64,000 bases of DNA from Candidatus Micrarchaeota archaeon (GCA_020854825.1 JAHKLY010000002.1:31487-95486), one strand, 5' to 3'. Counted from the first letter of the stretch, positions 1,406 through 61,663 are shown. A program made the numbers and translations. The notes: a model not told the origin generated them from the letters alone.

Positions 1406-2509
1406 ATGATATCCAAGGATTCAAAGCAAGTATTGGGAATGCTTGAAAATAAAAAAACTATTATGGTGGCGCAAATAGCACCAGCAGTAAGAGTTTCTAT
1501 GGGTGAAGAGTTTGGGTATAATTTAGGAACAGAAATAACTGAAAAATTAATAAGTGCTTTAAAGCAATTAGGTTTTGATTATGTTTTTGATACCTGTTTT
1601 GGTGCAGATGTTGTTACATTGGAAGAAGCATATGAGTTAGATTTAAGAATAAAAAATAATGGGCCTTTCCCTTTAATGACTTCTTGCTGTATTGGTTGGA
1701 GAAATCATGGATTGCAATTTTATCCTCAAAAATTAAAGAAGTTATCCACTTGTATGGCACCGCAAATAACTTTGGGTGCATTGATAAATAGTTATCTTCT
1801 TAAATATTTGAAAGTTAAAGATGATAAAAAAGTGGGAGTAGTTTCAATAATGCCTTGTATATTAAAAAAACAAGAAGCAAAACAAGAAGCTACAATTGGG
1901 TTAGAAGAAGTAAATTTTGTTTTAACAACAAAAGAATGTGCTGATTTATTAAAATATAAAAACATTGATTTGAAAAAATGTGGAAAAACTGATTTTGATA
2001 AATACTTAGGTCATGCAACTCAAGCAGGCAAAAAGTTTGGTGCGACAGGGGGAGTTTTAGAAGCAGTAATAAATACATATGCAGCAATGAAAGGTGATAA
2101 AACAAGAATAACAATTGATGATGATAAACCATTAAATGAATATTCTGTTAACATAGATGGAAAAAAATTGAATATCGCAAAGGTTTGGGGATTGCAGAAT
2201 TTAGATAAAATTATAGAACAAATTAAATGCGAAAAAAAAGAAATACATTTAATTGAAGTAATGGCTTGTCCATTTGGGTGTGTTGGAGGTCCAGGACAAC
2301 CAACTCCCGTAAATAATGAGAAGAATAAAAAACGTGCAAATGCATTAAGAAAATATGCTAAACAAGAAAATATGGAAACTCCATATGATAATAAAGATAT
2401 AAGAAAAATATATAATTTATATTTAGATAAAATAGGAACTGAAAAAACAAAAGAACTTTTACATATGGGTTTTATTCATTCAAAAATTAAAAATAATTTA
2501 AAAAGGTGA
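1406..2509 (+). CDS. hydA: [FeFe]-hydrogenase catalytic H-cluster domain protein (ultraminimal, no ferredoxin-like N-terminal domains)
   Basis: All three H-cluster signature motifs are present: P1 TSCCIGW (TSCCPxW), P2 MPCILKKQE (MPCxxKxxE), P3 EVMACPFGCVGGPGQP (ExMACxxGCxxGGGQP). The 367-aa protein begins directly with the H-domain. Confidence 0.8.
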   Translation: MISKDSKQVLGMLENKKTIMVAQIAPAVRVSMGEEFGYNLGTEITEKLISALKQLGFDYVFDTCFGADVVTLEEAYELDLRIKNNGPFPLMTSCCIGWRNHGLQFYPQKLKKLSTCMAPQITLGALINSYLLKYLKVKDDKKVGVVSIMPCILKKQEAKQEATIGLEEVNFVLTTKECADLLKYKNIDLKKCGKTDFDKYLGHATQAGKKFGATGGVLEAVINTYAAMKGDKTRITIDDDKPLNEYSVNIDGKKLNIAKVWGLQNLDKIIEQIKCEKKEIHLIEVMACPFGCVGGPGQPTPVNNEKNKKRANALRKYAKQENMETPYDNKDIRKIYNLYLDKIGTEKTKELLHMGFIHSKIKNNLKR

Positions 2510-30014: not shown

Positions 30015-30024
30015 AATTAATAAG

Positions 30025-30233
30025 CGGGCCTGGAGAGATTTATTTGTTTATTTCTTTTCTTTTTAGTTGAGTTTTTTATTTTCTTTTTTAAAGAAAAGAA
30101 AAAAGTCATTGAACTCTCGACCATCAGCTTAGAAGGCTTACGTGATATAGTTTTCTTTTTTGGAAAACGTAGCTTTTTTCTTTTACAAAAGAAAAAAGAT
30201 CGTGCCGCTCTGTCCAAGCTGAGCTACAGGCCC
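30025..30233 (-). tRNA. intron-containing tRNA, candidate tRNA-Arg(UCU), with at least 2 introns (one in the T-loop, one 5' of the anticodon arm)
   Basis: Minus strand: GGGCCTG-TA-GCTC-AGCTTGGACA-GAGC-G ... TAAGC-CTTCTAA-GCTGA-TGGTC-GAGAG-TTCAA[69-nt intron]AT-CTCTC-CAGGCCC-G. The acceptor, D and T stems pair perfectly and the T-loop reconstitutes TTCAAAT. The anticodon arm TAAGC/CTTCTAA/GCTGA has one A.G mismatch, and the exact 5' exon junction is ambiguous because of a repeated CACG. Confidence 0.5.
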
Positions 30234-30293
30234 ATTAATTGTATAATCTTATTTGTATAACCATTTAAAAAGGTTCTTTTGCATTTATATTAT

Positions 30294-30543: not shown

Positions 30544-32322
30544 TTACATTTTTTCTAATTCTGTTAAGCCTAATAAATTCATTCCTGTTTTAAGAGTTTC
30601 TGCTGTTTTTTCTAAAATTAATAATCTAAAGTTCTGTGCATCCTTATTTTCTTCTTTAAGAACAGAAACAGCGCTGTAAAAACTTGCAAATTCAGATGAA
30701 GTGCGCAATAAGTAATCACATATTTGATGTGGTTTTAATTCGTCTGCAGATTTTTCAATAATTTCTGAAAATTCTGATAGTAAAAGTAATAGTTTTTTTT
30801 CAGTATCATTTATTTTAATATTTTGTATATCTATCTTGAATGTTGGTTTTTTCTTTTTGAGAATACTTTTACATCTTACATAGGAGTACATAACATAGGG
30901 TGCAGAATCACCTTCTAAACTTAAAGCTTCCTCCCAATCAAAAGCAATTTTAGTTTCAGGTGCATATTTTAAAATGTAAAAGATCATTGAGTTAGTTGCT
31001 ATTGTTTTTGCTATTTTTTTATCTTCACAGTTTTTTTCTAATGCTTTTTCTATTCCTTGTTCAATAAAATCATCTACTGAATATCCTATCCATGTTCCTT
31101 TTCTTCCTGAAAATTTAATATTTTTTAAAGTGACTTGTTCATAAGTTAAATGATGATAATTTTCTGATTGTTTTGTATAACCCATTTGATTTAAACTATG
31201 TTTAACTACTTTTTGAGGATAAATTTGTTCATTGCCAATCACATTTACTATTTTATCTGCTTTAATTTTTTTCTTAGAACCTTTTTTATTGGTCATATAT
31301 GCAATTTTTTTAGAGGGTTGTGTCATAAATTTAGAAAAATTAAAATCACTTTTTAATAAACCAAATTTCCACATGTGAAAAATAATGTCTTTCCCAGTAT
31401 AGGTTGCAATTCCATTACTTCTTATTAAAATTTTATCTGGATTTTTCATTTTATCAAATTCTTTCCCAGACATTTTTATCACATAACATCCGTTATTCTC
31501 TCCAGTTTTTTCTAAATGAATTATTTTATTTTCTTTTAAGTGTTTGATTCCTTCATTAAAAATAGTATTCATTATATCTGATTCAAATACTAATATTTCG
31601 TGTTCAATATTGAAATTAAAACCAGTTTCCCATTGTGCTTTAACACATTTTTCACTTATTTCTCTTGCTTTTTTTGATATTTTTTCGTCTCCTTGTTCTA
31701 ATTTATGTAATAGTTCTTCTATTTCTTTTTTGATATTGGGATCTTCTGTTTTTAAAGCAACTTTAACATATTCTCTTCCCATCCATTGATCAAATTTAAG
31801 ATTACTATCTGGTTTATTATTTAAGTTTAGAATTCCCCATAAACTTTGTGCAACCTGTAATCCTAAATCATCAATATAATCCATTCTAATAACATCATAT
31901 CCTGAATATGACATTAAATTTGATACTGAATTTCCTAATACTGCATTTCTAAAGTGTCCTATATGCCATGGTTTATTTGGATTAACTGAAGGGAATTCAA
32001 TTATCACTGTTTTTTTATTTTTTTTATTTTTTTCTTTATTTTTCAAAACTTCTTCAAAAAAATTATTTGAAAAATAGATATTGATGTATGGGCCAATACA
32101 GTCTATTTTTTCAATATTTTTATCTTTTAATTCATTACTTATTTTTTTTGCTATTAAATTAGGATTTGTTTTATCTTTTTTAGCAATAGAAAAAGCGATA
32201 GTACACGCTAGATCGCCAAATGAACTTTTTGGTTTTTCTAAAGAGGAATAACATATTGGATAGTCTAAATTAGTAATTTTATTTAGTTTTATCGCTATTG
32301 TTTCCTTTATTTTAGTATACAT
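30544..32322 (-). CDS. argS: arginyl-tRNA synthetase
   Basis: HIGH motif (PNKPWHIGHFRNAVLG). N-terminal Arg-tRNA-synthetase additional domain. C-terminal DALR-like helical domain. 592 aa. Confidence 0.85.
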   Translation of the reverse strand: MYTKIKETIAIKLNKITNLDYPICYSSLEKPKSSFGDLACTIAFSIAKKDKTNPNLIAKKISNELKDKNIEKIDCIGPYINIYFSNNFFEEVLKNKEKNKKNKKTVIIEFPSVNPNKPWHIGHFRNAVLGNSVSNLMSYSGYDVIRMDYIDDLGLQVAQSLWGILNLNNKPDSNLKFDQWMGREYVKVALKTEDPNIKKEIEELLHKLEQGDEKISKKAREISEKCVKAQWETGFNFNIEHEILVFESDIMNTIFNEGIKHLKENKIIHLEKTGENNGCYVIKMSGKEFDKMKNPDKILIRSNGIATYTGKDIIFHMWKFGLLKSDFNFSKFMTQPSKKIAYMTNKKGSKKKIKADKIVNVIGNEQIYPQKVVKHSLNQMGYTKQSENYHHLTYEQVTLKNIKFSGRKGTWIGYSVDDFIEQGIEKALEKNCEDKKIAKTIATNSMIFYILKYAPETKIAFDWEEALSLEGDSAPYVMYSYVRCKSILKKKKPTFKIDIQNIKINDTEKKLLLLLSEFSEIIEKSADELKPHQICDYLLRTSSEFASFYSAVSVLKEENKDAQNFRLLILEKTAETLKTGMNLLGLTELEKM

Positions 32323-39253: not shown

Positions 39254-39706
39254 ATGAGATGTCCATATTGTATGTATGAAGATACTAAAGTTATTGATTC
39301 AAGGCAAGATGAGGACATTGTTAGAAGAAGAAGGGAGTGCGAAAAATGTGAAAAAAGATTCACTACTTTTGAAAGAGCAGAAATTGTCGAGTTTTATGTT
39401 ATTAAAAAAGATGGGAGAAGAGAGCTTTTTGACAGAAAAAAATTAAGATCGGGCATAATAAAAGCATGTGAAAAAAGACCAATAAGTCAAGAACAAATAG
39501 AAGAATTAGTTGATATAATAGAAAAAAAATTGAGGCAACGAAAAACATTGGAAGTTAATTCAACTTTAGTAGGAGATTGTGTTATGAAAAAACTAAAAGT
39601 AATAGACACAATTGCATATATTCGATTTGCTTCAGTTTATAAAGAATTTGATGATATTGAGTCTTTTGAAGCAACTCTTGAAAATCTTAAGAATAAAAAG
39701 GGGTGA
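39254..39706 (+). CDS. nrdR: transcriptional repressor NrdR (zinc ribbon + ATP-cone)
   Basis: MRCPYCMYEDTKVIDSRQ...RRRRECEKCEKRFTTFE is the canonical NrdR N-terminus. ATP-cone follows. 150 aa. Confidence 0.85.
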   Translation: MRCPYCMYEDTKVIDSRQDEDIVRRRRECEKCEKRFTTFERAEIVEFYVIKKDGRRELFDRKKLRSGIIKACEKRPISQEQIEELVDIIEKKLRQRKTLEVNSTLVGDCVMKKLKVIDTIAYIRFASVYKEFDDIESFEATLENLKNKKG

Positions 39707-39710
39707 AAAA

Positions 39711-41906
39711 ATGGAAGTATCGCAAATAAGAAAAAGAGATGGGACAATCGTTTTGTTTAATAAACAAAAGATTATTGATGCAATTTGGAAAGCTATGAGA
39801 ACTGTTAATGAAGGAGATAGAGATAGGGCAGAAGAAGTAGCAGATCAAGTAGTTGAATTATTAAATCATAAATTTAGGAAAACAACTTCCCCTACAGTTG
39901 AAGAAATTCAAGACGTTATTGAAGAAGTGTTAATTTTAAATAAGTATGTTAAAACTTCAAAAGCATTTATTTTATATAGAAAACAGCATTCAGATGTTAG
40001 AAGAATGGCTAGTTTAATGAATACAGTAGAAACAATAGAAAAGTATATAGACCAAGCAGACTGGAGAGTAAAAGAAAATGCTAATATGACATATTCATTA
40101 CAAGGATTAAATAATCATATTGCAAGTTTAGTTGTTGCAGAATATTGGTTAGATAAATTATATCCTTCAAAAATTGCATTTGCACATAGAAATGCAGAGA
40201 TACATATACATGATTTAAGTACTTTAGGAGCTTATTGTGTAGGTTGGGATTTACAAGATGTATTGATGACAGGGTTCACAGGAGTGGAAGGAAAGATACA
40301 ATCAAAACCACCCAAACATTTAAGAGTAGTTTTAGGACAAATAGTCAATTATATTTATACATTGCAAGGTGAGACTGCAGGTGCGCAAGCATTTAGTAAT
40401 TTTGATACGCTTTTAGCTCCATTTGTAAGATATGATAGATTAGATTACCAGCAATTAAAACAAACTTTTCAGGAATTTTTATTTAACATGAATGTACCTA
40501 CGAGAGTTGGATTTCAAACACCATTTTCTAATATAACTATGGACCTAACTCCCCATCCTAGTTATAAAAATTTACCTGTAATCATTGGGGGTAAAATGAC
40601 TGACGATGTTTATGGTGATTTTCAAGAAGAAATGAATATGATTAATCAAGTTTTTGCTGAAGCAATGATAGAAGGAGATGCACATGGAAGAATTTTTACT
40701 TTTCCAATACCTACATATAATATTACAAAAGATTTTGATTGGGATTCACCAGAAGTTAAAAAAGTATTTGAAATGACTGCAAAATATGGAATTCCTTATT
40801 TTTCAAATTTTATAAATAGTGATATGAAACCAGAAGATGCCCGCAGTATGTGTTGCCGACTTAGGCTTGACAATAGGGAATTAAGAAAAAGAGGCGGAGG
40901 ATTATTTGGTGCAAATCCGCTAACTGGCAGTATAGGAGTAGTAACGATTAATCTTCCAAGAATTGGATATTTAGCAAGAACTGAAGAAGAATATTTTGAA
41001 AAATTAGATGAAGCAATGGATTTAGCATATACTAGTTTAGAAATAAAAAGAAAAGTATTAGAAAGTTTTACAGAACGTGGATTGTACCCATATTCTAAAT
41101 TTTATTTAAGAAAAATAAAAGAAACTCATAACCAATATTGGAAAAATCATTTTAGTACAATAGGATTAATTGGTATGAATGAGTCTATGATGAATATGTT
41201 TGGTTCTGGGTTATTAGATACTGAAAGTAGAAAATTTGCAATAAAAATTTTAGATTACATGAGAAAAAAATTAGAAGACTATCAGTTAGAGTCAGGCAAT
41301 ATATTTAATTTAGAAGCAACACCTGGAGAAGGAACAACACACAGACTCGCAAAAATTGATAAAACAAATTATCCAAGCATAATTGTAGCTAATGAAGAAT
41401 CCTATCAGGAAAGAGGAGCAGCACCTTACTATACAAATTCAACCCAATTACACGTTGCATCAACAATAGATTTGTTTGACGCGTTGGATATAGAAGATGA
41501 ATTGCAAACCAAGTATACTGGGGGGACCGTATTTCATACTTTTCTAGGAGAAAAAATTCAAGATTGGAAAATGACAAGAGAGTTAGTTAAAAAAATTGCA
41601 CATAATTTTAAACTCCCGTATTTTACATTGACTCCAACTTTCAGTGTTTGTCCCGTTCATGGGTATATTGCAGGAGAATATGAAGTATGCCCTAAATGTG
41701 ATGAAGAAATAGGGTATGCAGGCATGATAAGACAACTTAATCAAGGTAAAACTATAGATCAAGAAATTTTAGAAGCAACAAAGAAAAAAAGGAATTATTG
41801 TGAAGTATATAGTAGAGTGGTTGGATATATACGACCAGTTAAACAATGGAATGCAGGAAAGGTAGAGGAATATAAGGAAAGAAAAGTTTTTGACAAATGT
41901 TTTTAA
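39711..41906 (+). CDS. nrdD: anaerobic ribonucleoside-triphosphate reductase (class III) NrdD
   Basis: N-terminal ATP-cone. C-terminal Zn ribbon CPVHG...CPKCDE. Glycyl-radical motif SRVVGY near the C-terminus. About 730 aa. Confidence 0.9.
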   Translation: MEVSQIRKRDGTIVLFNKQKIIDAIWKAMRTVNEGDRDRAEEVADQVVELLNHKFRKTTSPTVEEIQDVIEEVLILNKYVKTSKAFILYRKQHSDVRRMASLMNTVETIEKYIDQADWRVKENANMTYSLQGLNNHIASLVVAEYWLDKLYPSKIAFAHRNAEIHIHDLSTLGAYCVGWDLQDVLMTGFTGVEGKIQSKPPKHLRVVLGQIVNYIYTLQGETAGAQAFSNFDTLLAPFVRYDRLDYQQLKQTFQEFLFNMNVPTRVGFQTPFSNITMDLTPHPSYKNLPVIIGGKMTDDVYGDFQEEMNMINQVFAEAMIEGDAHGRIFTFPIPTYNITKDFDWDSPEVKKVFEMTAKYGIPYFSNFINSDMKPEDARSMCCRLRLDNRELRKRGGGLFGANPLTGSIGVVTINLPRIGYLARTEEEYFEKLDEAMDLAYTSLEIKRKVLESFTERGLYPYSKFYLRKIKETHNQYWKNHFSTIGLIGMNESMMNMFGSGLLDTESRKFAIKILDYMRKKLEDYQLESGNIFNLEATPGEGTTHRLAKIDKTNYPSIIVANEESYQERGAAPYYTNSTQLHVASTIDLFDALDIEDELQTKYTGGTVFHTFLGEKIQDWKMTRELVKKIAHNFKLPYFTLTPTFSVCPVHGYIAGEYEVCPKCDEEIGYAGMIRQLNQGKTIDQEILEATKKKRNYCEVYSRVVGYIRPVKQWNAGKVEEYKERKVFDKCF

Positions 41907-54877: not shown

Positions 54878-55858
54878 TTAAATTAATTTTATTAATCCCC
54901 TGCCTATTTCTGCTAAATCCGCACCTAACATCATAGCAAATGAACGTATAAAGGTATAAGTAATAATTAATGCTATTACTGGTGAAATAAATATTCTCAA
55001 TAATATTGCAAAAAAACTACTTTCAAAAAACATTCCAAGTATTGTTTGATAATCAATACTCATTGCCATGTTCTTAATTAAACTTGCAGTTGCTATATTA
55101 TTACCAATACATAATTCTTCTAACATTTTATTATACTCATCTAGATTTTCAATTTCAAATGCTTCTAAGGATTCTGATGTACTACCTGATACAAAAAGAG
55201 TCATTAAAAAAGCAGAGGGAAGCACAATTGCAAAACCTAATCCCATAGCAATAAACATTGCTCCTACACCCCTAGTTGGAGGAAATGCTCTTAATATAAT
55301 ACCCATGGGTAATATTATTACTGCTAGATAATCTCCAAATTTCATTACCTCAACAAAAAAATACATCCACATTACAAATATCCCTAATACGTTTATTATC
55401 CAAGTGAATGTTCCGATAATTGTATTTGGGAGTGAGGCTGCACCAGGAATAAATGTTTTACTTAATAATCCTCCCATATCAGTTCCTATTATTGAAATTT
55501 CTTTACCAAATGCAAAAAAGAAACCTGCACTAAATACATTTCTATATGTTTTTTTAATTGGCCCCAATATTTTATAAACTTCAAAAACTGCGGCATTAAC
55601 AGGGTCTGAACCAAGTACTGGTGCAGTTGAAGTTGTATGTGTTAATTCATTTGAAACTTCTTGGGTTAAATAAAGCATACCTTGAATAAATCCTATAATT
55701 GCTAAAATTATAAATGCAGTTATTAAAATTTCCATATACTCACTTTTACACCATTTTTCTAATCCTTTTAAAGAAAATGCTCTCGCCATCATATAGAATA
55801 TAGTAATTCCCCCCAAGCAAAAAATTGCCAATATTAGAGTTAATATTATCCAATCCAT
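54878..55858 (-). CDS. paralog 6 of tandem polytopic membrane protein family (R-x-F-P-x-T-R motif)
   Basis: LPMGIILRAFPPTRGVGAMFIAMG motif. C-terminal MLGADLAEIGRGLIKLI. Its start overlaps the upstream gene's stop. Confidence 0.6.
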   Translation of the reverse strand: MDWIILTLILAIFCLGGITIFYMMARAFSLKGLEKWCKSEYMEILITAFIILAIIGFIQGMLYLTQEVSNELTHTTSTAPVLGSDPVNAAVFEVYKILGPIKKTYRNVFSAGFFFAFGKEISIIGTDMGGLLSKTFIPGAASLPNTIIGTFTWIINVLGIFVMWMYFFVEVMKFGDYLAVIILPMGIILRAFPPTRGVGAMFIAMGLGFAIVLPSAFLMTLFVSGSTSESLEAFEIENLDEYNKMLEELCIGNNIATASLIKNMAMSIDYQTILGMFFESSFFAILLRIFISPVIALIITYTFIRSFAMMLGADLAEIGRGLIKLI

Positions 55859-56979
55859 TATATCATCCGTGTTAGATTTGATAAATCTATTTGTTCACCA
55901 AAGAACCTTGAAAATTCTCTCATTGATGTTGCCAATATAGCAAAATTTAATAGGGGTAAAAATAAACTACCCAAAATATTAATTGCCAACATTTTCCAAG
56001 TTGCCATAGATAATGCACTAAACATTATTTTCATAGGTTCAATTATACCAATCTTAAAAGTTATTGGTGCACTTGTATGTATATTTCCATCAAACATATC
56101 TGCAGGACTATTAATATGTAGATTAATAAATTGATTTGCTTGCATTTGTTCTGCAACAAATTCAATAATTCCTTCCCACATTCCAAATACTCCAATACCT
56201 TGTAATGCGACACTATTAATAACTAAGAGCATAGGCCAAAATAAACCCAATGCAATTGTTAATCCAATAAGTGTTCCCCCAAACCTTCTTGTAGGTTCAA
56301 AGCATCTTAGTAATATGCCAATAGGCAGGTATATAGTAAACATTCCAGCATATACATAATTAAATAACATAAGTTGGGTTATAGATGTTACAAGCATTGT
56401 TATTATTCCTATTTGTGCTATTTCAAATACTCTATTTAAACTATTTAATCCCTTTCCAGGAGTAATGCCAATACCCAAACCTATAATATCCACTGAAAAT
56501 TTAAAATTTCCAATAGTTTCTCTTTGAATATTAAAGAAAAGTATGCTTGTTAAAGAAATAGTATTCATTCTCATAAGTGTGGTTAAATAATCTTTTGCTT
56601 CTACGACCATTGAGTCATCGCCAGCACCTAGAACATTACCAAAAATCATTTTAGGAGTTAAACCTCCAGAACATAAAATAAATTCTGAAAATCCAACAAT
56701 AACGAGCAATATTAATACAGTTGCACCAACTTGTAGCATTTCATATTTTGCCCATGTTTCACCTTTTTGTATTTGCATCCCCCTACATATAAGAAATATA
56801 ATTAATAGAATTAAAAGAGAAATCATTATTGCTATATAGCAAGTGACAGCCCATGAAGACATAAATGCATTCAAATCTCCCCCACAAACATCATCTGGAA
56901 ATATATCAAATAATGCAGAATGCGACAGATTAAATAGTAGAATTATGCATAGGATAAATAAGGGAATTTTTTTGATCAT
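55858..56979 (-). CDS. paralog 5 of tandem membrane protein family
   Basis: LPIGILLRCFEPTRRFGGTLIGLT. C-terminal FFGEQIDLSNLTRMI. Signal-peptide-like N-terminus. Confidence 0.6.
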   Translation of the reverse strand: MIKKIPLFILCIILLFNLSHSALFDIFPDDVCGGDLNAFMSSWAVTCYIAIMISLLILLIIFLICRGMQIQKGETWAKYEMLQVGATVLILLVIVGFSEFILCSGGLTPKMIFGNVLGAGDDSMVVEAKDYLTTLMRMNTISLTSILFFNIQRETIGNFKFSVDIIGLGIGITPGKGLNSLNRVFEIAQIGIITMLVTSITQLMLFNYVYAGMFTIYLPIGILLRCFEPTRRFGGTLIGLTIALGLFWPMLLVINSVALQGIGVFGMWEGIIEFVAEQMQANQFINLHINSPADMFDGNIHTSAPITFKIGIIEPMKIMFSALSMATWKMLAINILGSLFLPLLNFAILATSMREFSRFFGEQIDLSNLTRMI

Positions 56980-58181
56980 ATTAATTTCACCAATTCTGCT
57001 ACATTCATATCTGAACCTAAGAATTTTCCCATTTCTTGTATAAATGTAAATGTAATGAATATATTTAATGAAGGCAATATAAAACTACCTATCATTACTA
57101 GAAAAATACCTTCTTGGAGCATAATATAAAAGGCGTCCATATATAAATCACTAATTGCTCCAGCAACCATTGGATAAAGAAGCTGCCGATTTTTAAATAT
57201 AGTGGGAGTTCCACTTGTCATAAATTCTTTAAATGATTTATATAATGGATCTATTATGGCATTTGTAATTTCTCTACCTGGCCTATTAAGAGTAGGAGGG
57301 AAAGCATAGAAATGGTCTTGTGCATAATTTATCATTTCATAAGGATATACTCCAATATATGCAGACATTATTAAATTATTGAGATTAAGCATAATTGGAT
57401 AAACAAAATATAGGCCTAGTGCAAGGGCAATTAATCCCCCCCCTACAGAACGAGTAGTTGGAAAACTTCGCAATATTAATCCCAATGGTAAAAATAAAGC
57501 AAGCATTTTATCTGAAGTAAAACATAGAATAAACATATTACCAATCCAGCTTGTTATTGCAGGTAATAAAATAACCAAAGACCAATCAGTTAGTTTAGAC
57601 ACAATGCCAAACATTGAACCAAAATCATAATTAATTCCAATCATATTAAATGGAGTGAAATTAATTTCTATTGAGAATAACCCTTCTAAAAACATATTTA
57701 TAGTTAACATATGGTATCCTAAATGCATTAGTTCTGCAGCCATTGCTTCTGAATAATAATATGCAGTTTGTAATAAAGTGCACCCCGCATTTGGATCGCT
57801 TGGGTCAGAGTATCCACATAAAGTTACATCACAATCACCTACATTTTGACAAGAAGGGTTATTTAATTTTCCAATTTGATCTAAAGGCCCTATCAATGCA
57901 AGCAATAAAACAATAAGTATGAAGGATGCACTAACTTGCCAAATTTCATTTTTTCCCCATGCACTAATATTTGGAAGGTCCACTGCTTTTCCGATTAAAA
58001 ACACACAAACAGCAATCATAAATACAAGAAAAACTCCAGTAATAGATAGTACTAACCAGTTTAATGATGAATCTTGTAGTCCAATTGTTGGGCATGTTTG
58101 AGTCGGTTGTACTAAACTAAATCCTGTGATATTATTAATACAAAGGAAAAACATAATTACTAAAATTAATTTATTATTCAT
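56976..58181 (-). CDS. paralog 4 of tandem membrane protein family
   Basis: LPLGLILRSFPTTRSVGGGLIALA. C-terminal FLGSDMNVAELVKLI. Confidence 0.6.
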   Translation of the reverse strand: MNNKLILVIMFFLCINNITGFSLVQPTQTCPTIGLQDSSLNWLVLSITGVFLVFMIAVCVFLIGKAVDLPNISAWGKNEIWQVSASFILIVLLLALIGPLDQIGKLNNPSCQNVGDCDVTLCGYSDPSDPNAGCTLLQTAYYYSEAMAAELMHLGYHMLTINMFLEGLFSIEINFTPFNMIGINYDFGSMFGIVSKLTDWSLVILLPAITSWIGNMFILCFTSDKMLALFLPLGLILRSFPTTRSVGGGLIALALGLYFVYPIMLNLNNLIMSAYIGVYPYEMINYAQDHFYAFPPTLNRPGREITNAIIDPLYKSFKEFMTSGTPTIFKNRQLLYPMVAGAISDLYMDAFYIMLQEGIFLVMIGSFILPSLNIFITFTFIQEMGKFLGSDMNVAELVKLI

Positions 58182-58189
58182 TTTTTCAC

Positions 58190-59437
58190 CTATAAGAAAT
58201 GTGATAATCCTGCAATTGATGCATCTCCTCCAAAAAATGGAGCCATTGTTTTTATTGAAGCTAAAATAGCGAATAATACAAGTAAAGGTATAATAACAGT
58301 TAGCATAGCAATTTTACCAATCATATGTAAGATACCGTCTATTTCAAGAGCCATATTCTGTCCTTTAAGATGCATAAGAAGATATGCATCAGAAATCGAA
58401 AAAACTCTATTATAATATTCAGTAAATCCTTTACCTATATTTTTAAGCGATTCAAGAGGATGAAGAAAATCAAAATGTGCATTTTCAAAATCAAATTGAG
58501 GTAACAAACTTGCACTTCCTTCAGTCATAAAATCAGCATAAGGCAGTAGTTTTTGTCCAGTCAAAGAGGTCTGTAATCCTATAAAGTTTCCTGATTCAAA
58601 CATTGCCCTATGGCCAATAATATATGGTAATGGAGCAATATAATACAGGCTAAGAGATGTAGCTATTAAAAACCCCCCCAATTTTCTAGTAAATTCAAAA
58701 CTTCTAAATACAAATCCACTAATTAATAAAACTGGAAATAAAACTTGTGCTACTATATCTACTGCATTTTTTTGAATTATATTAATAATTAAAGAATGTG
58801 ATAAAAGTTTGAATGCTTTAGCATACATTCCAAATTCTACTGAATATCCTACTCCCGGCATAATTTTTAGTATTTCTGGAAGCAACAAGAAAGGAGGTTT
58901 AGGCGCAATTACGTATCCTTGTAATAAAAATTTAAAAGATGAAAAAAAGCTTAATTGTTGGTATAATAATAACATTTGTGTCATTGTTTCTGATATCAAC
59001 CATTCTGTTCTATCTAAAAATGATAGTGTTACACATATATGAGGAGCGTAATTTCTGCCTACTACTTCAAATCCTTTTTTTGTATATAAACACTTTCCAT
59101 CTGGATTTAATGCAACACCTGCCTCTTGCATAGTCAAAGTATTGGATAATATTAAATCAATATTTGGAGTTGTATCTATTGAAGAATATGGATCTAATTG
59201 CACAATTCCTTTGGGGATGATTTCGTTATCTATAATTGGTATTGCAACAACGACAATCAAAAAGAAAAAGAATAGATTTAGAATGACTTGCCCATATTCA
59301 GTTTTTGCCTTTGCTCTTAAAGATTCGTCTTGTAATATAAATGAAAATAAATGTATTAGAACATAAATTCCAAGCATAATTAAAGATAGTACAAATGTAA
59401 GCAAAAGCCCCTGTGTTTGTAATTCTATAGGTATCAT
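58190..59437 (-). CDS. paralog 3 of tandem membrane protein family
   Basis: FPVLLISGFVFRSFEFTRKLGGFLIATS. C-terminal FFGGDASIAGLSHFL. Confidence 0.6.
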   Translation of the reverse strand: MIPIELQTQGLLLTFVLSLIMLGIYVLIHLFSFILQDESLRAKAKTEYGQVILNLFFFFLIVVVAIPIIDNEIIPKGIVQLDPYSSIDTTPNIDLILSNTLTMQEAGVALNPDGKCLYTKKGFEVVGRNYAPHICVTLSFLDRTEWLISETMTQMLLLYQQLSFFSSFKFLLQGYVIAPKPPFLLLPEILKIMPGVGYSVEFGMYAKAFKLLSHSLIINIIQKNAVDIVAQVLFPVLLISGFVFRSFEFTRKLGGFLIATSLSLYYIAPLPYIIGHRAMFESGNFIGLQTSLTGQKLLPYADFMTEGSASLLPQFDFENAHFDFLHPLESLKNIGKGFTEYYNRVFSISDAYLLMHLKGQNMALEIDGILHMIGKIAMLTVIIPLLVLFAILASIKTMAPFFGGDASIAGLSHFL

Positions 59438-60390
59438 TAATCAAACCTCTGTATTAAGAATTTTTGAAAACTATTTATAAAAGATACTGTTATTGCCATA
59501 CTTATTGTAGGTAAAAATAATCCCTGCATTAAAACAACTGACAGCATTATAAATCCATTAAATATTTCATATAGTTTTGGCTCTATTACTTGAAATGTTT
59601 TTCCCCAAGCACCTGTAAATGCATCAAATGTTGTGCTATTTGGTATTTCATCAAATATTATTTGAGTTATTGAAATCATGAAGTTATCTTGTATATCTGA
59701 AACAATATTTTCAACTATTGCTGCGTGGATTACATATGAAAATGGAAAAACAATATAAAATCCAATTGCAACTGCGATTAAAAATGAACCTGAATTTCTT
59801 GTAGTTGGAAATATTCTTAAGAAAATTCCGATTGGCAATACAAAAGGAATCATTATTGCTTTTATAATTGATAATGCAAATTGTTGTATTGCTAAACTTG
59901 CATAAAATGGACTCATTAAAGCAAATACTTTATCTAATGCTTTTGTTAAAGTACTTAAATCAAACGGAGGAAAGGTAACGTCTGCTCTTATTGGAATTCC
60001 TATCAAGGCTACTCCAGGTATGTCATTTAATCCTATCTTTATATTTATTTTAGTTAATATATCCATTCCCACCCTCCCATAGAATACAGATTTCATAGTT
60101 CCAAATGTATCAACAAGTAGGTTTTCTAAATATTCTAAAGATATAGTAAATGGGTCATTTCCAATTAATTGAGTGCTTATTTCAAATAATCCTTGTATTC
60201 CAAATATAATAAATAACAAAATAGCAATAGATACCAATATCTGATATAATTCCATTCTTGCAAAAATTTCAAATTCTTTATTATTTAATAATTTAGAAAG
60301 CAAATAAGAAATTGCAGTTAATGCTACCATAATCATTAAAGGTACGATAGAAAGTTGCAATGCAGTTATAAATGCTTGATCAAATGCCAT
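59437..60390 (-). CDS. paralog 2 of tandem membrane protein family
   Basis: LPIGIFLRIFPTTRNSGSFLIAVA. Stop/start overlap with neighbours. Confidence 0.6.
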   Translation of the reverse strand: MAFDQAFITALQLSIVPLMIMVALTAISYLLSKLLNNKEFEIFARMELYQILVSIAILLFIIFGIQGLFEISTQLIGNDPFTISLEYLENLLVDTFGTMKSVFYGRVGMDILTKINIKIGLNDIPGVALIGIPIRADVTFPPFDLSTLTKALDKVFALMSPFYASLAIQQFALSIIKAIMIPFVLPIGIFLRIFPTTRNSGSFLIAVAIGFYIVFPFSYVIHAAIVENIVSDIQDNFMISITQIIFDEIPNSTTFDAFTGAWGKTFQVIEPKLYEIFNGFIMLSVVLMQGLFLPTISMAITVSFINSFQKFLIQRFD

Positions 60391-60391
60391 A

Positions 60392-61663
60392 TTATCCCAA
60401 CTTTAATTTTTCAATTCCAAATATTTTTGTTTCTCCTCCTAAAATTCCAGAGATATTTGCAAATAAGGTTAAACAAATAATAACATCCATAAAAAAACAA
60501 ATAGCAATAAAAATAAACTTCTGTAAAACTTGATTTGCTAAAGCGGCTGTGTAATGAATTGGTTCAGCTGCAAATTCACTTAAATTAATGCCTAATGCAG
60601 CACCAGCAAGTGCAGTTGTTAATTTGGATAATTTACTTAAGGTTCCAAATAATAAATTGTTTATTGTATTGCTAATTACTTCTCCTGCTCTTATCACAGA
60701 TCTTCCAATATATGCAAAAAAGTTTTTTATTTTATCACCTAAATTTGAATTCCAATTAGTTTCTTCGTTTATATCATTTATATTATCTGTTAATGAACCA
60801 AATTCATCAATTAATATATCTCCCCCTTCAGGATAATGTTCATCCATTTTTTCCTGCATTTTTGTTTCATCTTCAAGTTTTTGTTCTAATCTTTCTTCTA
60901 ATAATGCAACAGAAATTGGATCCTCATTATCATATGATAAACCACCTAAGAACATATTGACATATATATATTGATTAAATAAAATAGTCATTGGAAAAAT
61001 GAAATAAAAAGTAATTGCTAATGCAATTAATGTAGAACCTAATCTTCTTGTTATGGGTAATGCGCGTAATATTATCCCCAATGGGAAAAATATTGTGAAT
61101 GAAGTTATTTTAATAAAATCCAATATGGAATCCATTACAGATACTAAAAAGTTTGTCATAATAACAGTTTTAGTTATATCTCCAATCATATCTGCAACTA
61201 TATTCAATCCTGCTAATGGTTGCATGCTTACACTCACTACAAAACCAACAAGACCCCCCATAGGTATGGGAACTCCAAATGTTATTCCATATTTAGAATA
61301 ACCAGATAAAATTGCACTAGTTCGTACTCCTCTTTCCGCAATATTTTGTAGATTTAAATCCAGTACTTTTAGAAACACTTTTCCTTGTGTAAAATATACG
61401 GGATCGTTTATATCTAAAGGTCCTGAATAACCTATTAATGCATAACATACTAATAATACCACATAATGAAGTAAAAACATCCCAAGAAAAACTATTAATA
61501 CAGAATAAATCAATTCTTTAAATTCTTTTTGTGCCCAGCCTTTTAATTGAGGAAATCCTCCCAAAGTAGATATTAAATATGCAAATAAAGCACCGCCTAG
61601 ACTTATCATTAATCCTATAAATACTAGTACATATGCTTGTGAACTAAATACCATATAATTCAT
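60392..61663 (-). CDS. paralog 1 (first gene) of tandem membrane protein family, with acidic insertion
   Basis: FPLGIILRALPITRRLGSTLIALA motif. E/D-rich insertion (EERLEQKLEDETKMQEKMDEH). C-terminal FGIEKLKLG. Confidence 0.6.
   Translation of the reverse strand: MNYMVFSSQAYVLVFIGLMISLGGALFAYLISTLGGFPQLKGWAQKEFKELIYSVLIVFLGMFLLHYVVLLVCYALIGYSGPLDINDPVYFTQGKVFLKVLDLNLQNIAERGVRTSAILSGYSKYGITFGVPIPMGGLVGFVVSVSMQPLAGLNIVADMIGDITKTVIMTNFLVSVMDSILDFIKITSFTIFFPLGIILRALPITRRLGSTLIALAITFYFIFPMTILFNQYIYVNMFLGGLSYDNEDPISVALLEERLEQKLEDETKMQEKMDEHYPEGGDILIDEFGSLTDNINDINEETNWNSNLGDKIKNFFAYIGRSVIRAGEVISNTINNLLFGTLSKLSKLTTALAGAALGINLSEFAAEPIHYTAALANQVLQKFIFIAICFFMDVIICLTLFANISGILGGETKIFGIEKLKLG

What the first reader, a model, noticed from the sequence alone, without database searches (positions are those of the whole stretch)
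30025..30233. Multi-intron tRNA (candidate tRNA-Arg UCU) located beside argS
A 209-nt minus-strand locus has perfect tRNA acceptor (GGGCCTG/CAGGCCC), D (GCTC/GAGC) and T (GAGAG/CTCTC) stems, but these are separated by about 135 nt of extra sequence. One intron splits the T-loop (TTCAA|69 nt|AT restores TTCAAAT). Another about 65-nt insertion lies between the D-arm and the anticodon arm (non-canonical position, with a repeated CACG at both junctions). The reconstituted anticodon loop CTTCTAA gives UCU(Arg), which fits the heavy AGA codon usage of this genome. It sits 300 bp from arginyl-tRNA synthetase. Multi-intron tRNAs with non-canonical intron positions are known mainly from Thermoproteales and a few other archaeal lineages.
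Basis: seen in the sequence. Interest (0 to 1): 0.75.

Follow-up and report, generated by a model that had tools for sequence, protein, structure and literature searches.

The report
Two-intron tRNA-Arg(UCU) gene, Micrarchaeota
This 209-base locus is a real arginine tRNA gene broken by two short protein-spliced introns, one in the anticodon stem and one in the T-loop; standard tRNA finders miss it, but such genes are already known from this group of tiny archaea.

Summary

**The gene.** Window 30025-30233 (minus strand) encodes a three-exon tRNA-Arg(UCU).
- Exons are 31, 29 and 15 nt.
- A 65-nt intron lies at tRNA position 29/30.
- A 69-nt intron lies in the T-loop at 58/59.
- The spliced 75-nt product is a canonical cloverleaf (ARAGORN score 119). 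None of 149 random window segments gave any call under the same deletion grid.

**Comparative evidence.** The host is a Micrarchaeota (DPANN) archaeon.
- Orthologous loci have nearly invariant exons with compensatory stem changes.
- Their 29/30 introns are 21-65 nt long.
- One close relative lacks the T-loop intron exactly (…GAGAGTTCAAATCTCTC…).
- One distant relative lacks the 29/30 intron exactly (…GGCAGCCTTCTAA…).
- Both junctions fit relaxed bulge-helix-bulge motifs, and the intron-side helix covaries.

**Importance to the host.** AGA makes up 77% of Arg codons in the window.

**Novelty.** Multi-intron, non-canonical-position tRNAs and a broad-specificity ε2 splicing endonuclease were described for ARMAN-1/2 (Micrarchaeum) in 2011. 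This is therefore a new member of a known kind. The added interest is intron turnover among orthologues, with T-loop introns at 56/57, 58/59 and 59/60.

The parts
30203..30233 (-). Exon 1 (31 nt): tRNA positions 1-29. It holds the acceptor 5' strand, the D arm (with A14, G18, G19, A20, A21), G26 and G27-C28-A29 of the anticodon stem.
   Evidence: The sequence is identical in L008, L010 and L019. Compensatory changes at 6-67 and 12-23 are seen in L017, L023 and L024.
30138..30202 (-). Intron 1 (65 nt) at position 29/30, with a relaxed BHB motif. The central helix H is G24C25G26G27 (30208-30205) paired with ACGU (30143-30140); three of four pairs form here. The 5' bulge is CA|C and the 3' bulge is AA|G. 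The intron helix h' is GAU (30201-30199) with AUC (30146-30144). Inside the intron are an 11-bp hairpin (CUUUUUUCUUU/AAAGAAAAAAG) and a 6-bp hairpin.
   Evidence: Orthologues have introns of 21, 23, 48, 60 and 65 nt at the same site, and all three h' pairs covary. L024 lacks the intron and reads GGCAGCCTTCTAA without interruption.
30109..30137 (-). Exon 2 (29 nt): tRNA positions 30-58. It holds G30-C31, the anticodon loop CUUCUAA, the 3' strand of the anticodon stem, the variable loop UGGUC, the T-stem 5' strand GAGAG and U54-A58.
   Evidence: Rfam's tRNA model gives a weak sub-threshold partial match here (30093-30159, 17.8 bits).
30131..30133 (-). Anticodon TCT (UCU), which reads AGA and, by wobble, AGG.
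   Evidence: AGA is 77% of Arg codons in the window.
30040..30108 (-). Intron 2 (69 nt) in the T-loop at 58/59, with an hBH-type relaxed BHB motif. The outer helix h pairs 49-52 with 60-63 (the T stem slipped by two positions, 4 bp). The central helix H is G53U54U55C56 (30114-30111) paired with AAAU (30045-30042); three of four pairs form here and four of four in L014, L017 and L019. The bulges are AA|U and AA|A. Inside the intron is a 12-bp hairpin.
   Evidence: The intron is absent, with an exact TTCAAAT junction, in L010/L011/L021/L022. It is 60-107 nt long in L017, L019 and L014.
30025..30039 (-). Exon 3 (15 nt): tRNA positions 59-73. It holds A59, U60, the T-stem 3' strand CUCUC, the acceptor 3' strand CAGGCCC and the discriminator G73. 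No CCA is encoded.
30264..30271 (.). TTTTTAAA, a TATA-like box 31-38 nt upstream of G1 and 23-30 nt upstream of the divergent Zn-ribbon gene's ATG (30294). It is a candidate shared or bidirectional archaeal promoter. This is inferred only.
   Evidence: Read directly from the sequence. The box, and its spacing in L008, L010, L014 and L019, are conserved across those loci while the spacer between box and tRNA diverges. No transcription data are available.

Best explanation
The locus is a functional, colinear three-exon gene for tRNA-Arg(UCU) in a Micrarchaeota (DPANN) archaeon.

The proposed pathway has four steps.
1. The gene is transcribed as one precursor of at least 209 nt.
2. The archaeal tRNA splicing endonuclease cuts at two relaxed bulge-helix-bulge motifs. 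At each site it cuts 2 nt 3' of a central 4-bp helix formed between exon nucleotides just upstream of the 5' splice site and intron nucleotides just upstream of the 3' splice site.
3. This removes a 65-nt intron from position 29/30 and a 69-nt intron from position 58/59.
4. An RNA ligase (RtcB in archaea) joins the three exons into a 75-nt tRNA, to which CCA is then added.

This tRNA decodes AGA, the dominant Arg codon in this genome.

Shown here: the exon/intron architecture, the exact junctions (from natural intron-less alleles), the cloverleaf with covariation, and the BHB-like pairings with covariation.

Inferred from the literature on Micrarchaeum/ARMAN-2: the enzyme (an ε2-type or otherwise loop-bearing broad-specificity EndA), the ligation step, and expression of the gene.
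For: **The locus is not detected as a tRNA until spliced.**
- ARAGORN and Rfam find no tRNA in the unspliced window.
- After removal of window 30138-30202 and 30040-30108, ARAGORN calls tRNA-Arg(TCT) with score 119.0.
- None of 149 random segments gave any call under the same procedure.

**The spliced RNA has the expected tRNA features.**
- It carries U8, A14, G18G19, A21, U33, G53-U54-U55-C56, A58 and C61, plus the Arg identity nucleotides A20 and C35 (read from the sequence).

**Orthologues agree (all upstream of the UPF0147 gene).**
- Exons are 100% identical in L008, L010 and L019, although ArgS is only 77-95% identical.
- Intron 1 is 21, 23, 48, 60 or 65 nt long, and the T-loop intron is 0, 60, 69, 83 or 107 nt long.
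- L010/L011/L021/L022 read GAGAGTTCAAATCTCTC, the exact junction expected when intron 2 is absent.
- L024 reads GGCAGCCTTCTAA, the exact junction expected when intron 1 is absent.

**Structure counts.**
- Cloverleaf: 97% of cells are paired against 27-46% when partners are slid. Five pairs change on both sides, including acceptor and T-stem pairs that span the introns.
- Intron 1 BHB: 91% paired against 23-53% when slid. All three h' pairs covary. H is a full 4 bp in L014, L017 and L023. In L014 the BHB is part of the unconstrained minimum-free-energy fold.
- Intron 2 BHB: h has 4 bp in every sequence, H has 4 of 4 pairs in L014, L017 and L019, and the bulges AA|U and AA|A are conserved.

**Importance and lineage.**
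- AGA is 475 of 615 Arg codons.
- ArgS and UPF0147 homologues place the host in Micrarchaeota/Micrarchaeia.
- ARMAN-2 (Micrarchaeum) has 56% disrupted tRNA genes, multi-intron tRNAs and an ε2 EndA shown in vitro to cut a relaxed hBH intron at 59/60 (PMC3239211).
- Positions 29/30, 56/57 and 59/60 are known intron sites (PMC4090602).
Against: - There are no RNA data, so splicing and expression are inferred.
- In the window sequence itself both central helices are imperfect (G·U, two Watson-Crick pairs, then a mismatch with A). The whole-precursor minimum-free-energy fold (-57.9 kcal/mol) prefers a competing pairing over the BHB-constrained fold (-47.8 kcal/mol).
- Intron 1 lacks a contiguous outer exon helix next to the 3' splice site, and intron 2 lacks a contiguous h' helix, so both motifs are relaxed rather than strict.
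- No splicing endonuclease or ligase gene was found among 40 window ORFs scanned with Pfam, so the enzyme type in this genome is unknown.
- A second, uninterrupted tRNA-Arg(UCU) copy elsewhere in the genome cannot be excluded from a 64-kb window.
- The covariation rests on only 5-7 distinct sequences, and the BHB alignment was anchored on the model's own splice sites.
Confidence: 0.9

Rival explanations
1. The locus is a decaying tRNA pseudogene disrupted by two A/T-rich insertions. It is no longer processed into a working tRNA, and the real tRNA-Arg(UCU) lies elsewhere in the genome.
For: - Both central BHB helices in the window carry a mismatch, and the minimum-free-energy fold does not adopt the BHB.
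- Standard finders do not call the locus.
- Only 64 kb of the genome can be inspected.
Against: - Exons are 100% conserved across relatives whose ArgS is only 77% identical, while the introns diverge.
- Stem changes are compensatory, with no stem-breaking substitutions.
- The splice-site helices covary.
- The same interrupted gene sits at the same syntenic slot in at least seven lineages.
- AGA is the main Arg codon.
Confidence: 0.04
2. The inserts are real and the RNA is functional, but they are not removed by the BHB endonuclease pathway. They might be retained as expansions, trimmed by other nucleases, or self-splicing.
For: - The motifs are relaxed, and no EndA gene was seen in the window.
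- The T-loop intron requires a slipped T-stem register to form the outer helix.
Against: - Inserts of 65 and 69 nt within the anticodon stem and between A58 and A59 are incompatible with the tRNA L-shape if they are retained.
- They are far too short for group I or II introns, and Rfam finds no match.
- In every orthologue the junction lies exactly 2 nt 3' of a 4-bp helix on both strands, which is the EndA ruler.
- The related ARMAN-2 enzyme cuts a relaxed T-loop motif in vitro (PMC3239211).
Confidence: 0.04
3. The region encodes a small basic protein, and the tRNA-like stems are coincidental. The candidate is the 66-aa ORF at 30017-30217 on the minus strand; a 54-aa gene is called at the equivalent place in L015.
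For: An ORF is present, and an automatic gene call exists in L015.
Against: - Intron lengths differ by amounts that are not multiples of three (21/48/60/65 nt and 0/60/69/83/107 nt), so no reading frame is conserved.
- The conservation pattern is exon-like only in the tRNA parts.
- The random-segment control gave 0 of 149 tRNA calls.
Confidence: 0.01

Closest known systems
[quoted passage not shown] 2011, PMC3239211; Hirata et al. 2012, PMC3488258)
   Same: - Same phylum.
- Several short introns in a single tRNA gene.
- One intron lies in the T-loop.
- The BHB motifs are relaxed (hBH / HBh').
- Default tRNA finders miss the gene.
   Different: - The isoacceptor is different: Arg(UCU).
- The intron positions are different: 29/30 plus 58/59.
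- The host is a 28% G+C lineage whose ArgS is under 50% identical to that of other described Micrarchaeota.
- The introns are longer (65 and 69 nt, against 13-25 nt in the ARMAN-2 substrates that were tested).
- The EndA type of this lineage was not determined.
Multi-intron tRNA genes of Thermoproteales (Pyrobaculum, Thermofilum, Caldivirga), with up to three introns at 3/4, 22/23, 29/30, 45/46, 56/57, 59/60 and other sites (Sugahara et al. 2008 and Fujishima et al. 2010, as summarised in PMC4033280 and PMC4090602)
   Same: - The architecture and mechanism class are the same.
- 29/30 is a recurrent site there too, including the split tRNA-Ala at 29/30 in Caldivirga.
- Introns turn over quickly between close relatives, and similar intron sequences appear at different sites.
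   Different: - The superphylum is different (TACK against DPANN).
- The endonuclease is different ((αβ)2 with the crenarchaeal loop).
- Those hosts are hyperthermophiles with G+C-rich introns, whereas these introns are A/T-rich.
Canonical archaeal tRNA intron at 37/38 with a strict hBHBh' motif (Marck & Grosjean 2003, cited in PMC8450103)
   Same: - The cleavage geometry is the same: cuts 2 nt 3' of a 4-bp helix on each strand.
- The orthologue L024 carries such a canonical intron in this same tRNA.
   Different: - The window gene has no 37/38 intron.
- Both of its introns are at non-canonical sites and each lacks one flanking helix, so α4- or α'2-type enzymes lacking the specificity-broadening loop insertions would not be expected to cut them.

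Membership tests
Archaeal BHB-intron-containing (multi-intron) tRNA gene | Removing the proposed introns yields a canonical cloverleaf tRNA with the universally conserved nucleotides. | tested here: met
   ARAGORN scores the spliced window sequence 119.0 and five distinct orthologous spliced sequences 114-123, all 75 nt. In the cloverleaf 97% of cells are paired and five pairs are compensatory. The random control gave 0 of 149 calls.
Archaeal BHB-intron-containing (multi-intron) tRNA gene | A BHB or relaxed (HBh'/hBH) motif at each exon-intron boundary, with both splice sites 2 nt 3' of a central 4-bp helix. | tested here: met
   Met in relaxed form. For intron 1, H has 3/4 pairs in the window, L008, L010 and L019 and 4/4 in L014, L017 and L023. 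The bulges are CA|N and AA|G (AU|G in L023), and h' has 3-6 bp and covaries. For intron 2, h has 4 bp, H has 3/4 pairs (window) to 4/4 (L014, L017, L019), and the bulges are AA|U and AA|A. The window's own helices are the weakest of the set.
Archaeal BHB-intron-containing (multi-intron) tRNA gene | Exons are conserved while introns vary or are absent in orthologues, with exact junctions. | tested here: met
   Intron 1 is 21-65 nt, or absent in L024. Intron 2 is 60-107 nt, or absent in L010-type loci. The junctions are GGCA|GCC and TTCAA|AT.
Archaeal BHB-intron-containing (multi-intron) tRNA gene | The host encodes a splicing endonuclease able to cut relaxed motifs ((αβ)2, ε2 or loop-bearing α4) and an RtcB-type ligase. 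| not testable with these tools
   No tRNA_int_endo or RtcB hit was found among 40 window ORFs, and the rest of the genome is not available. The feature is inferred from ARMAN-2 and Mancarchaeum (PMC3239211, PMC5829648).
Archaeal BHB-intron-containing (multi-intron) tRNA gene | The spliced mature RNA is observed. | not testable with these tools
   No transcriptome data are available.
tRNA-Arg(UCU) isoacceptor | Anticodon UCU in a 7-nt loop with U33, together with the ArgRS identity nucleotides A20 and C35. | tested here: met
   The loop is C32-U33-U34-C35-U36-A37-A38, with A20 in the D-loop and discriminator G73. The role of these nucleotides as identity elements comes from established knowledge of E. 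coli and yeast ArgRS and was not tested here.
Split or permuted tRNA gene (Nanoarchaeum, Caldivirga, Thermofilum) | The tRNA pieces are encoded at separate loci or in permuted order and joined in trans or through a circular intermediate. | tested here: not met
   All three exons are colinear within a single 209-nt locus, in the order 5' to 3'.
Group I / group II self-splicing tRNA intron | An intron of at least about 200 nt with a catalytic core that matches the Rfam models. | tested here: not met
   The introns are 65 and 69 nt. Rfam gives no match at gathering threshold or at E<=10.

The most novel reading that the evidence does not exclude
The orthologous tRNA-Arg(UCU) genes of this Micrarchaeota clade may record active tRNA-intron mobility outside Thermoproteales. 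Four observations point that way.

- The T-loop intron sits at three different adjacent sites in orthologues: 56/57 in L023, 58/59 in the window clade and 59/60 in L024.
- It was precisely lost in one nested lineage (L010).
- The 29/30 intron grew from about 21-23 nt to 60-65 nt in the window sub-clade. It gained a poly-U/poly-A hairpin that resembles the 5' module of the T-loop intron of the same gene.
- The precursor can form a 10-bp alternative helix between the D-loop (positions 12-20) and the anticodon arm (34-43). This helix could supply the missing outer helix for the 29/30 BHB, and it is disrupted in the one orthologue that lacks that intron.

If real, these loci would be a tractable natural series for studying how BHB introns move, slide and are lost.
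Probability: 0.3. Interest if true: 0.5.

Novelty: new member of a known kind. Interest (0 to 1): 0.35.

Why it matters
The gene most likely supplies the tRNA for 77% of the Arg codons seen in this window, yet ARAGORN and Rfam do not detect it. Genome completeness and tRNA-complement estimates for such DPANN genomes would wrongly report tRNA-Arg(UCU) as missing. Kaneta et al. 2018 (PMC5829648) explicitly flagged this problem. Biologically, the locus extends the ARMAN-2 observations to a distant, low-G+C Micrarchaeota lineage. It also provides a small natural series of orthologues with intron gain, loss, size change and apparent sliding. That series could be used to test models of BHB-intron mobility and the substrate limits of DPANN splicing endonucleases. 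It does not reveal a new kind of system.

Tried and rejected
**Searches that found nothing or little**
- ARAGORN, default and with -i (anticodon-loop introns), found nothing in the window. With a lowered threshold it gave only implausible calls with 300-2100-nt 'introns'.
- Rfam at gathering threshold found nothing. At E<=10 it gave only a 17.8-bit partial tRNA hit on exon 2.
- An exact-match scan of metagenome contigs with the 29-nt exon 2 returned only the contig already held as L008. Relatives were reached instead through the neighbouring ArgS and UPF0147 proteins.
- A genome-contig scan with ArgS gave only distant, non-syntenic Micrarchaeota loci.
- My own scans for tRNA 5' halves (acceptor + D arm + distant complementary acceptor) and for intact T arms found no other candidate tRNA in the 64 kb. 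The one extra hit, at 60609-60860, is at the level seen in shuffled sequence.
- A Pfam scan of 40 window ORFs found no EndA or RtcB.

**Registers and folds considered and rejected**
- For the window's T-loop intron, the registers 56/57, 57/58 and 59/60 give 0 or 1 pairs in the central helix. In addition, 59/60 would give TTCAATT, which contradicts the intron-less allele.
- A competing fold seen in minimum-free-energy predictions pairs G27·U, C28-G, and G24-C31, C25-G30. It places neither splice site in a 3-nt bulge and is not supported in L014.

**Other**
- The hairpin search used a mis-spaced pattern and its result is void. The corrected search finds the intron-1 hairpin only at its own site, so it is not a dispersed repeat in this window.
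- The paper PMC1852824 (Sugahara 2007) is not held. I therefore could not check whether 58/59 itself has been reported before.

Full report
**1. What is in the sequence**

On the minus strand, window 30233 to 30025 reads as follows:

GGGCCTGTAGCTCAGCTTGGACAGAGCGGCA / 65 nt / GCCTTCTAAGCTGATGGTCGAGAGTTCAA / 69 nt / ATCTCTCCAGGCCCG

ARAGORN (default and intron mode) and Rfam at gathering thresholds report no tRNA anywhere in the 64 kb. A permissive Rfam run gives only a 17.8-bit partial tRNA match over the middle piece.

I removed every combination of two intervals on a grid of 20,107 deletions and scored the products with ARAGORN. The best products were tRNA-Arg(TCT) with score 119.0. They correspond to removing 30138-30202 and 30040-30108. 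The same grid applied to 149 random 209-nt segments of the window produced no tRNA call at all. The resemblance is therefore not a by-product of the search.

The spliced 75-nt RNA has these features:
- U8, A14, G18G19, A21, G26, U33, G53-U54-U55-C56, A58 and C61.
- A G15:C48 Levitt pair.
- A20 and C35, which are ArgRS identity nucleotides by established knowledge.
- Discriminator G73.
- A single G27·A43 mismatch at the top of the anticodon stem.

The identical 209-nt locus is present in three independent assemblies (L001-L003), so it is not an assembly artefact.

**2. Host and context**

ArgS (30544-32322, minus strand) and the downstream UPF0147 protein have their best named homologues in Candidatus Micrarchaeota/Micrarchaeia. 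The window is 25-32% G+C. It carries archaeal core genes, including the PolD small and large subunits, proteasome subunits, exosome subunits, PCNA and Cdc6.

On the minus strand the order is argS, then a divergent 82-aa double Zn-ribbon gene on the plus strand, then the tRNA, then UPF0147. AGA accounts for 475 of 615 Arg codons in ORFs of at least 200 aa.

**3. Comparative evidence**

Using ArgS and UPF0147 as handles, I retrieved orthologous loci that carry a tRNA immediately upstream of UPF0147.

| Locus | Relatedness to window | Intron 1 (29/30) | T-loop intron | Other notes |
|---|---|---|---|---|
| L008 | ArgS 95% | 65 nt; one substitution that adds base pairs to a helix | 69 nt at 58/59 | |
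| L010/L011/L021/L022 | ArgS 77% | 65 nt, with substitutions | none: GAGAGTTCAAATCTCTCCAGGCCCG | |
| L019 | UPF0147 80% | 60 nt | 83 nt at 58/59 | |
| L014/L015 | UPF0147 77-78% | 21 nt | 107 nt at 58/59 | T stem GGGAG/CTCCC |
| L017/L018 | UPF0147 71-75% | 48 nt | 60 nt at 58/59 | acceptor GGGCCCG/CGGGCCC |
| L023 | UPF0147 55-56% | 23 nt | 128 nt at 56/57 | |
| L024 | UPF0147 54-59% | none: GGCAGCCTTCTAA contiguous | 32 nt at 59/60 | canonical 37/38 intron of 29 nt |

- The two intron-less alleles give exactly the exon-exon junctions predicted for the window.
- All five distinct spliced sequences are 75 nt, and ARAGORN calls each tRNA-Arg(TCT) with score 114-123.
- On their alignment, 97.1% of stem cells are paired. 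This compares with 27-46% when partners are slid, and none of 500 shuffles reached the observed value.
- Five pairs change on both sides. They include 6-67 and three T-stem pairs whose two halves lie on different exons.

**4. Splice-site structure**

I applied the archaeal rule, taken from established knowledge and the reviews PMC4090602 and PMC3239211. The 5' side reads: 4 nt of central helix, then 2 exon nt, then the cut, then 1 intron nt. The 3' side reads: 4 nt of central helix, then 2 intron nt, then the cut, then 1 exon nt.

*Intron 1.*
- H is G24C25G26G27 paired with NCGU (CCGC in L023).
- Three of four pairs form in the window, L008, L010 and L019, where N is A. All four form in L014, L017 and L023.
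- The 5' bulge is C28A29|N. The 3' bulge is AA|G30 (AU|G in L023).
- The intron helix h' starts directly after the bulge:

| Locus | h' pairing |
|---|---|
| window | GAU/AUC |
| L008 | GAUAU/AUAUC |
| L010, L019 | GAC/GUC |
| L014 | UCUGU/ACAGA |
| L023 | GAGGGG/CCCCUC |

- On a register-anchored alignment, 91% of cells pair, against 23-53% when slid, and all three h' pairs show changes on both sides. Because the alignment was anchored on the model, this supports the model but is not an independent test.
- There is no contiguous outer exon helix next to the 3' site, so the motif is of the HBh' type.
- The minimum-free-energy folds of all 29/30-containing precursors include a 10-bp helix between positions 12-20 and 34-43, which could act as a displaced outer helix. 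That helix is broken in L024, the one orthologue without this intron. This is a single contrast, so it is only a lead.

*Intron 2 in the window clade.*
- The outer helix pairs 49-52 with 60-63 (4 bp). This is the T stem slipped by two positions, which the GAGAG/UCUCUC repeat permits.
- H is G53U54U55C56 paired with AAAU in the window (C56·A mismatch), with GAAU in L014 and L019, and with GGAU in L017.
- The bulges are A57A58|U and AA|A59 (AU|A in L014).
- h' is not contiguous. Each intron instead forms a long internal hairpin (12 bp in the window). The motif is therefore of the hBH type, the class that ARMAN-2 ε2 EndA cuts in vitro at 59/60 (PMC3239211).
- For the window the registers 56/57, 57/58 and 59/60 give no usable central helix. 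In addition, 59/60 would produce TTCAATT, which disagrees with the intron-less allele.
- In L023 only 56/57 gives a good helix (GGGU/GCCC). In L024 only 59/60 does (UUCG/CGAG), with the T stem in register.

*Caveat.* In the window itself both central helices are the weakest of the series. The unconstrained fold (-57.9 kcal/mol) prefers a competing pairing over the BHB-constrained fold (-47.8 kcal/mol). In L014 the intron 1 BHB is part of the minimum-free-energy fold itself.

**5. Mechanism**

*Shown:* a colinear three-exon gene, exact junctions, a conserved cloverleaf, and BHB-like pairings at both junctions.

*Inferred:*
- The gene is transcribed as one precursor. A conserved TTTTTAAA box lies 31-38 nt upstream, and it also sits at promoter distance from the divergent Zn-ribbon gene.
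- A broad-specificity EndA cleaves both motifs. RtcB-type ligation and CCA addition follow.

I could not identify the enzyme. Forty window ORFs have no EndA or RtcB domain, and the rest of the genome is out of reach.

**6. Comparison with what is known**

- Fujishima et al. [quoted passage not shown] Their examples include an hBH intron at 59/60 and a tRNA with two T-loop introns, and they showed that the ε2 EndA cuts relaxed motifs.
- The 2014 review PMC4033280 lists ARMAN-1 and ARMAN-2 among lineages with multi-intron tRNAs.
- PMC4090602 lists 29/30, 56/57 and 59/60 among known non-canonical sites.
- PMC5829648 notes that incomplete tRNA sets in new DPANN genomes probably hide undetected disrupted genes.
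- tRNAscan-SE 2.0 has BHB models trained on Crenarchaeota, Euryarchaeota and Thaumarchaeota introns (PMC8450103). Whether it would call this gene was not testable here.

The finding is therefore a new member of a known kind. It is a different isoacceptor, with a different pair of positions and longer A/T-rich introns, in a lineage whose ArgS is under 50% identical to that of other named Micrarchaeota. I could not verify whether position 58/59 itself has been reported before.

**7. Evolutionary side-observations**

- A neighbour-joining tree of UPF0147, rooted with L023 and L024, places L010 inside the group that carries the 58/59 intron. Precise loss in the L010 lineage is the most parsimonious reading, but the tree rests on about 85 residues and is weak.
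- The enlarged (60-65 nt) intron 1 is confined to the window/L008/L010/L019 sub-clade.
- Its 5' hairpin resembles the 5' part of the T-loop intron. L010 intron 1 against L014 intron 2 gives z = 4.1, with 2 of 500 dinucleotide shuffles as high. The window's own two introns give z = 2.3. This is suggestive of module sharing, but the sequences are low-complexity.
- The hairpin is not repeated elsewhere in the window.
- The nearness to argS is inherited synteny. In an Anstonellales relative the block argS - small gene - tRNA - UPF0147 - PolD is kept, but the tRNA is an intron-less tRNA-Pro(CGG).

**8. Verdict**

My confidence that this is a functional, EndA-spliced, two-intron tRNA-Arg(UCU) gene is about 0.9. 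Interest is modest at 0.35: the phenomenon is established for this phylum, but the locus is a clean, well-controlled example and comes with an informative series of orthologues.

Noticed in passing
L023:2240-2464; L024:2363-2498; window 30040-30108: The orthologous tRNA-Arg(UCU) genes carry their T-loop intron at three different adjacent positions: 56/57 (L023, 128 nt), 58/59 (window clade, 60-107 nt) and 59/60 (L024, 32 nt). Each position is fixed by which register gives a 4-bp central helix. L024 also has a canonical 37/38 intron in place of the 29/30 one.
   Followed up: partly
L014:304-506 and L015:476-678: The orthologous tRNA-Arg in this lineage (GCA_964635315.1 and an independent ENA assembly) has C33 instead of the near-universal U33. 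Its anticodon loop is CCUCUAA.
   Followed up: no
window 30138-30202 versus 30040-30108, and L010 intron 1 versus L014 intron 2: The 5' hairpin module of intron 1 (UGACCUUUUUUCUUUUG…AAAGAAAAAAGCU) resembles the 5' part of the T-loop intron. L010 intron 1 against L014 intron 2 gives z = 4.1, with 2 of 500 shuffles as high. This may reflect module sharing or duplication between introns, but the sequences are low-complexity.
   Followed up: partly
window 30213-30222 with 30122-30131 (tRNA positions 12-20 with 34-43): A 10-bp alternative helix between the D-loop region and the anticodon loop / 3' stem appears in the minimum-free-energy fold of every precursor that has a 29/30 intron. It is disrupted in L024, which lacks that intron. 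It could serve as the outer helix of the BHB.
   Followed up: partly
L025/L026/L027:1832-1904: In an Anstonellales relative, the same syntenic slot (argS - small gene - tRNA - UPF0147 - PolD) holds an intron-less tRNA-Pro(CGG). Its D stem (UGCU/UGCU) is almost unpaired, which recalls the single-base-pair D arm reported for ARMAN-2 tRNA-Pro(CGG).
   Followed up: no
window 54881-61663 (-): Six consecutive same-strand ORFs (326, 373, 401, 415, 317 and 423 aa) have no Pfam match at E<=1e-3.
   Followed up: no
window 30017-30217 (-); L015:466-630: A 66-aa ORF runs across the tRNA gene, and an automatic 54-aa gene call exists at the equivalent place in L015. The frame is not conserved among orthologues, so these are spurious calls.
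   Followed up: yes
window 1-64000: No other tRNA-like locus is found in 64 kb by ARAGORN, Rfam, a scan for 5' halves plus a distant acceptor, or a T-arm scan. tRNAs with an intron in the D arm would escape these scans.
   Followed up: partly
window 1406-2506 (+): An ORF matches the Fe-only hydrogenase large-subunit C-terminal domain and the small-subunit domain (E = 1e-74 and 1e-9) in this small-genome DPANN archaeon.
   Followed up: no
L008:1-1262 and L009:1-4024: The anaerobic ribonucleotide reductase NrdD of close relatives is 1480 and 1953 aa long and carries intein and LAGLIDADG domains. The ORF at the corresponding position in the window's gene order (39612-41906) is only 764 aa and was not itself scanned against Pfam. 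This suggests intein presence/absence polymorphism.
   Followed up: no
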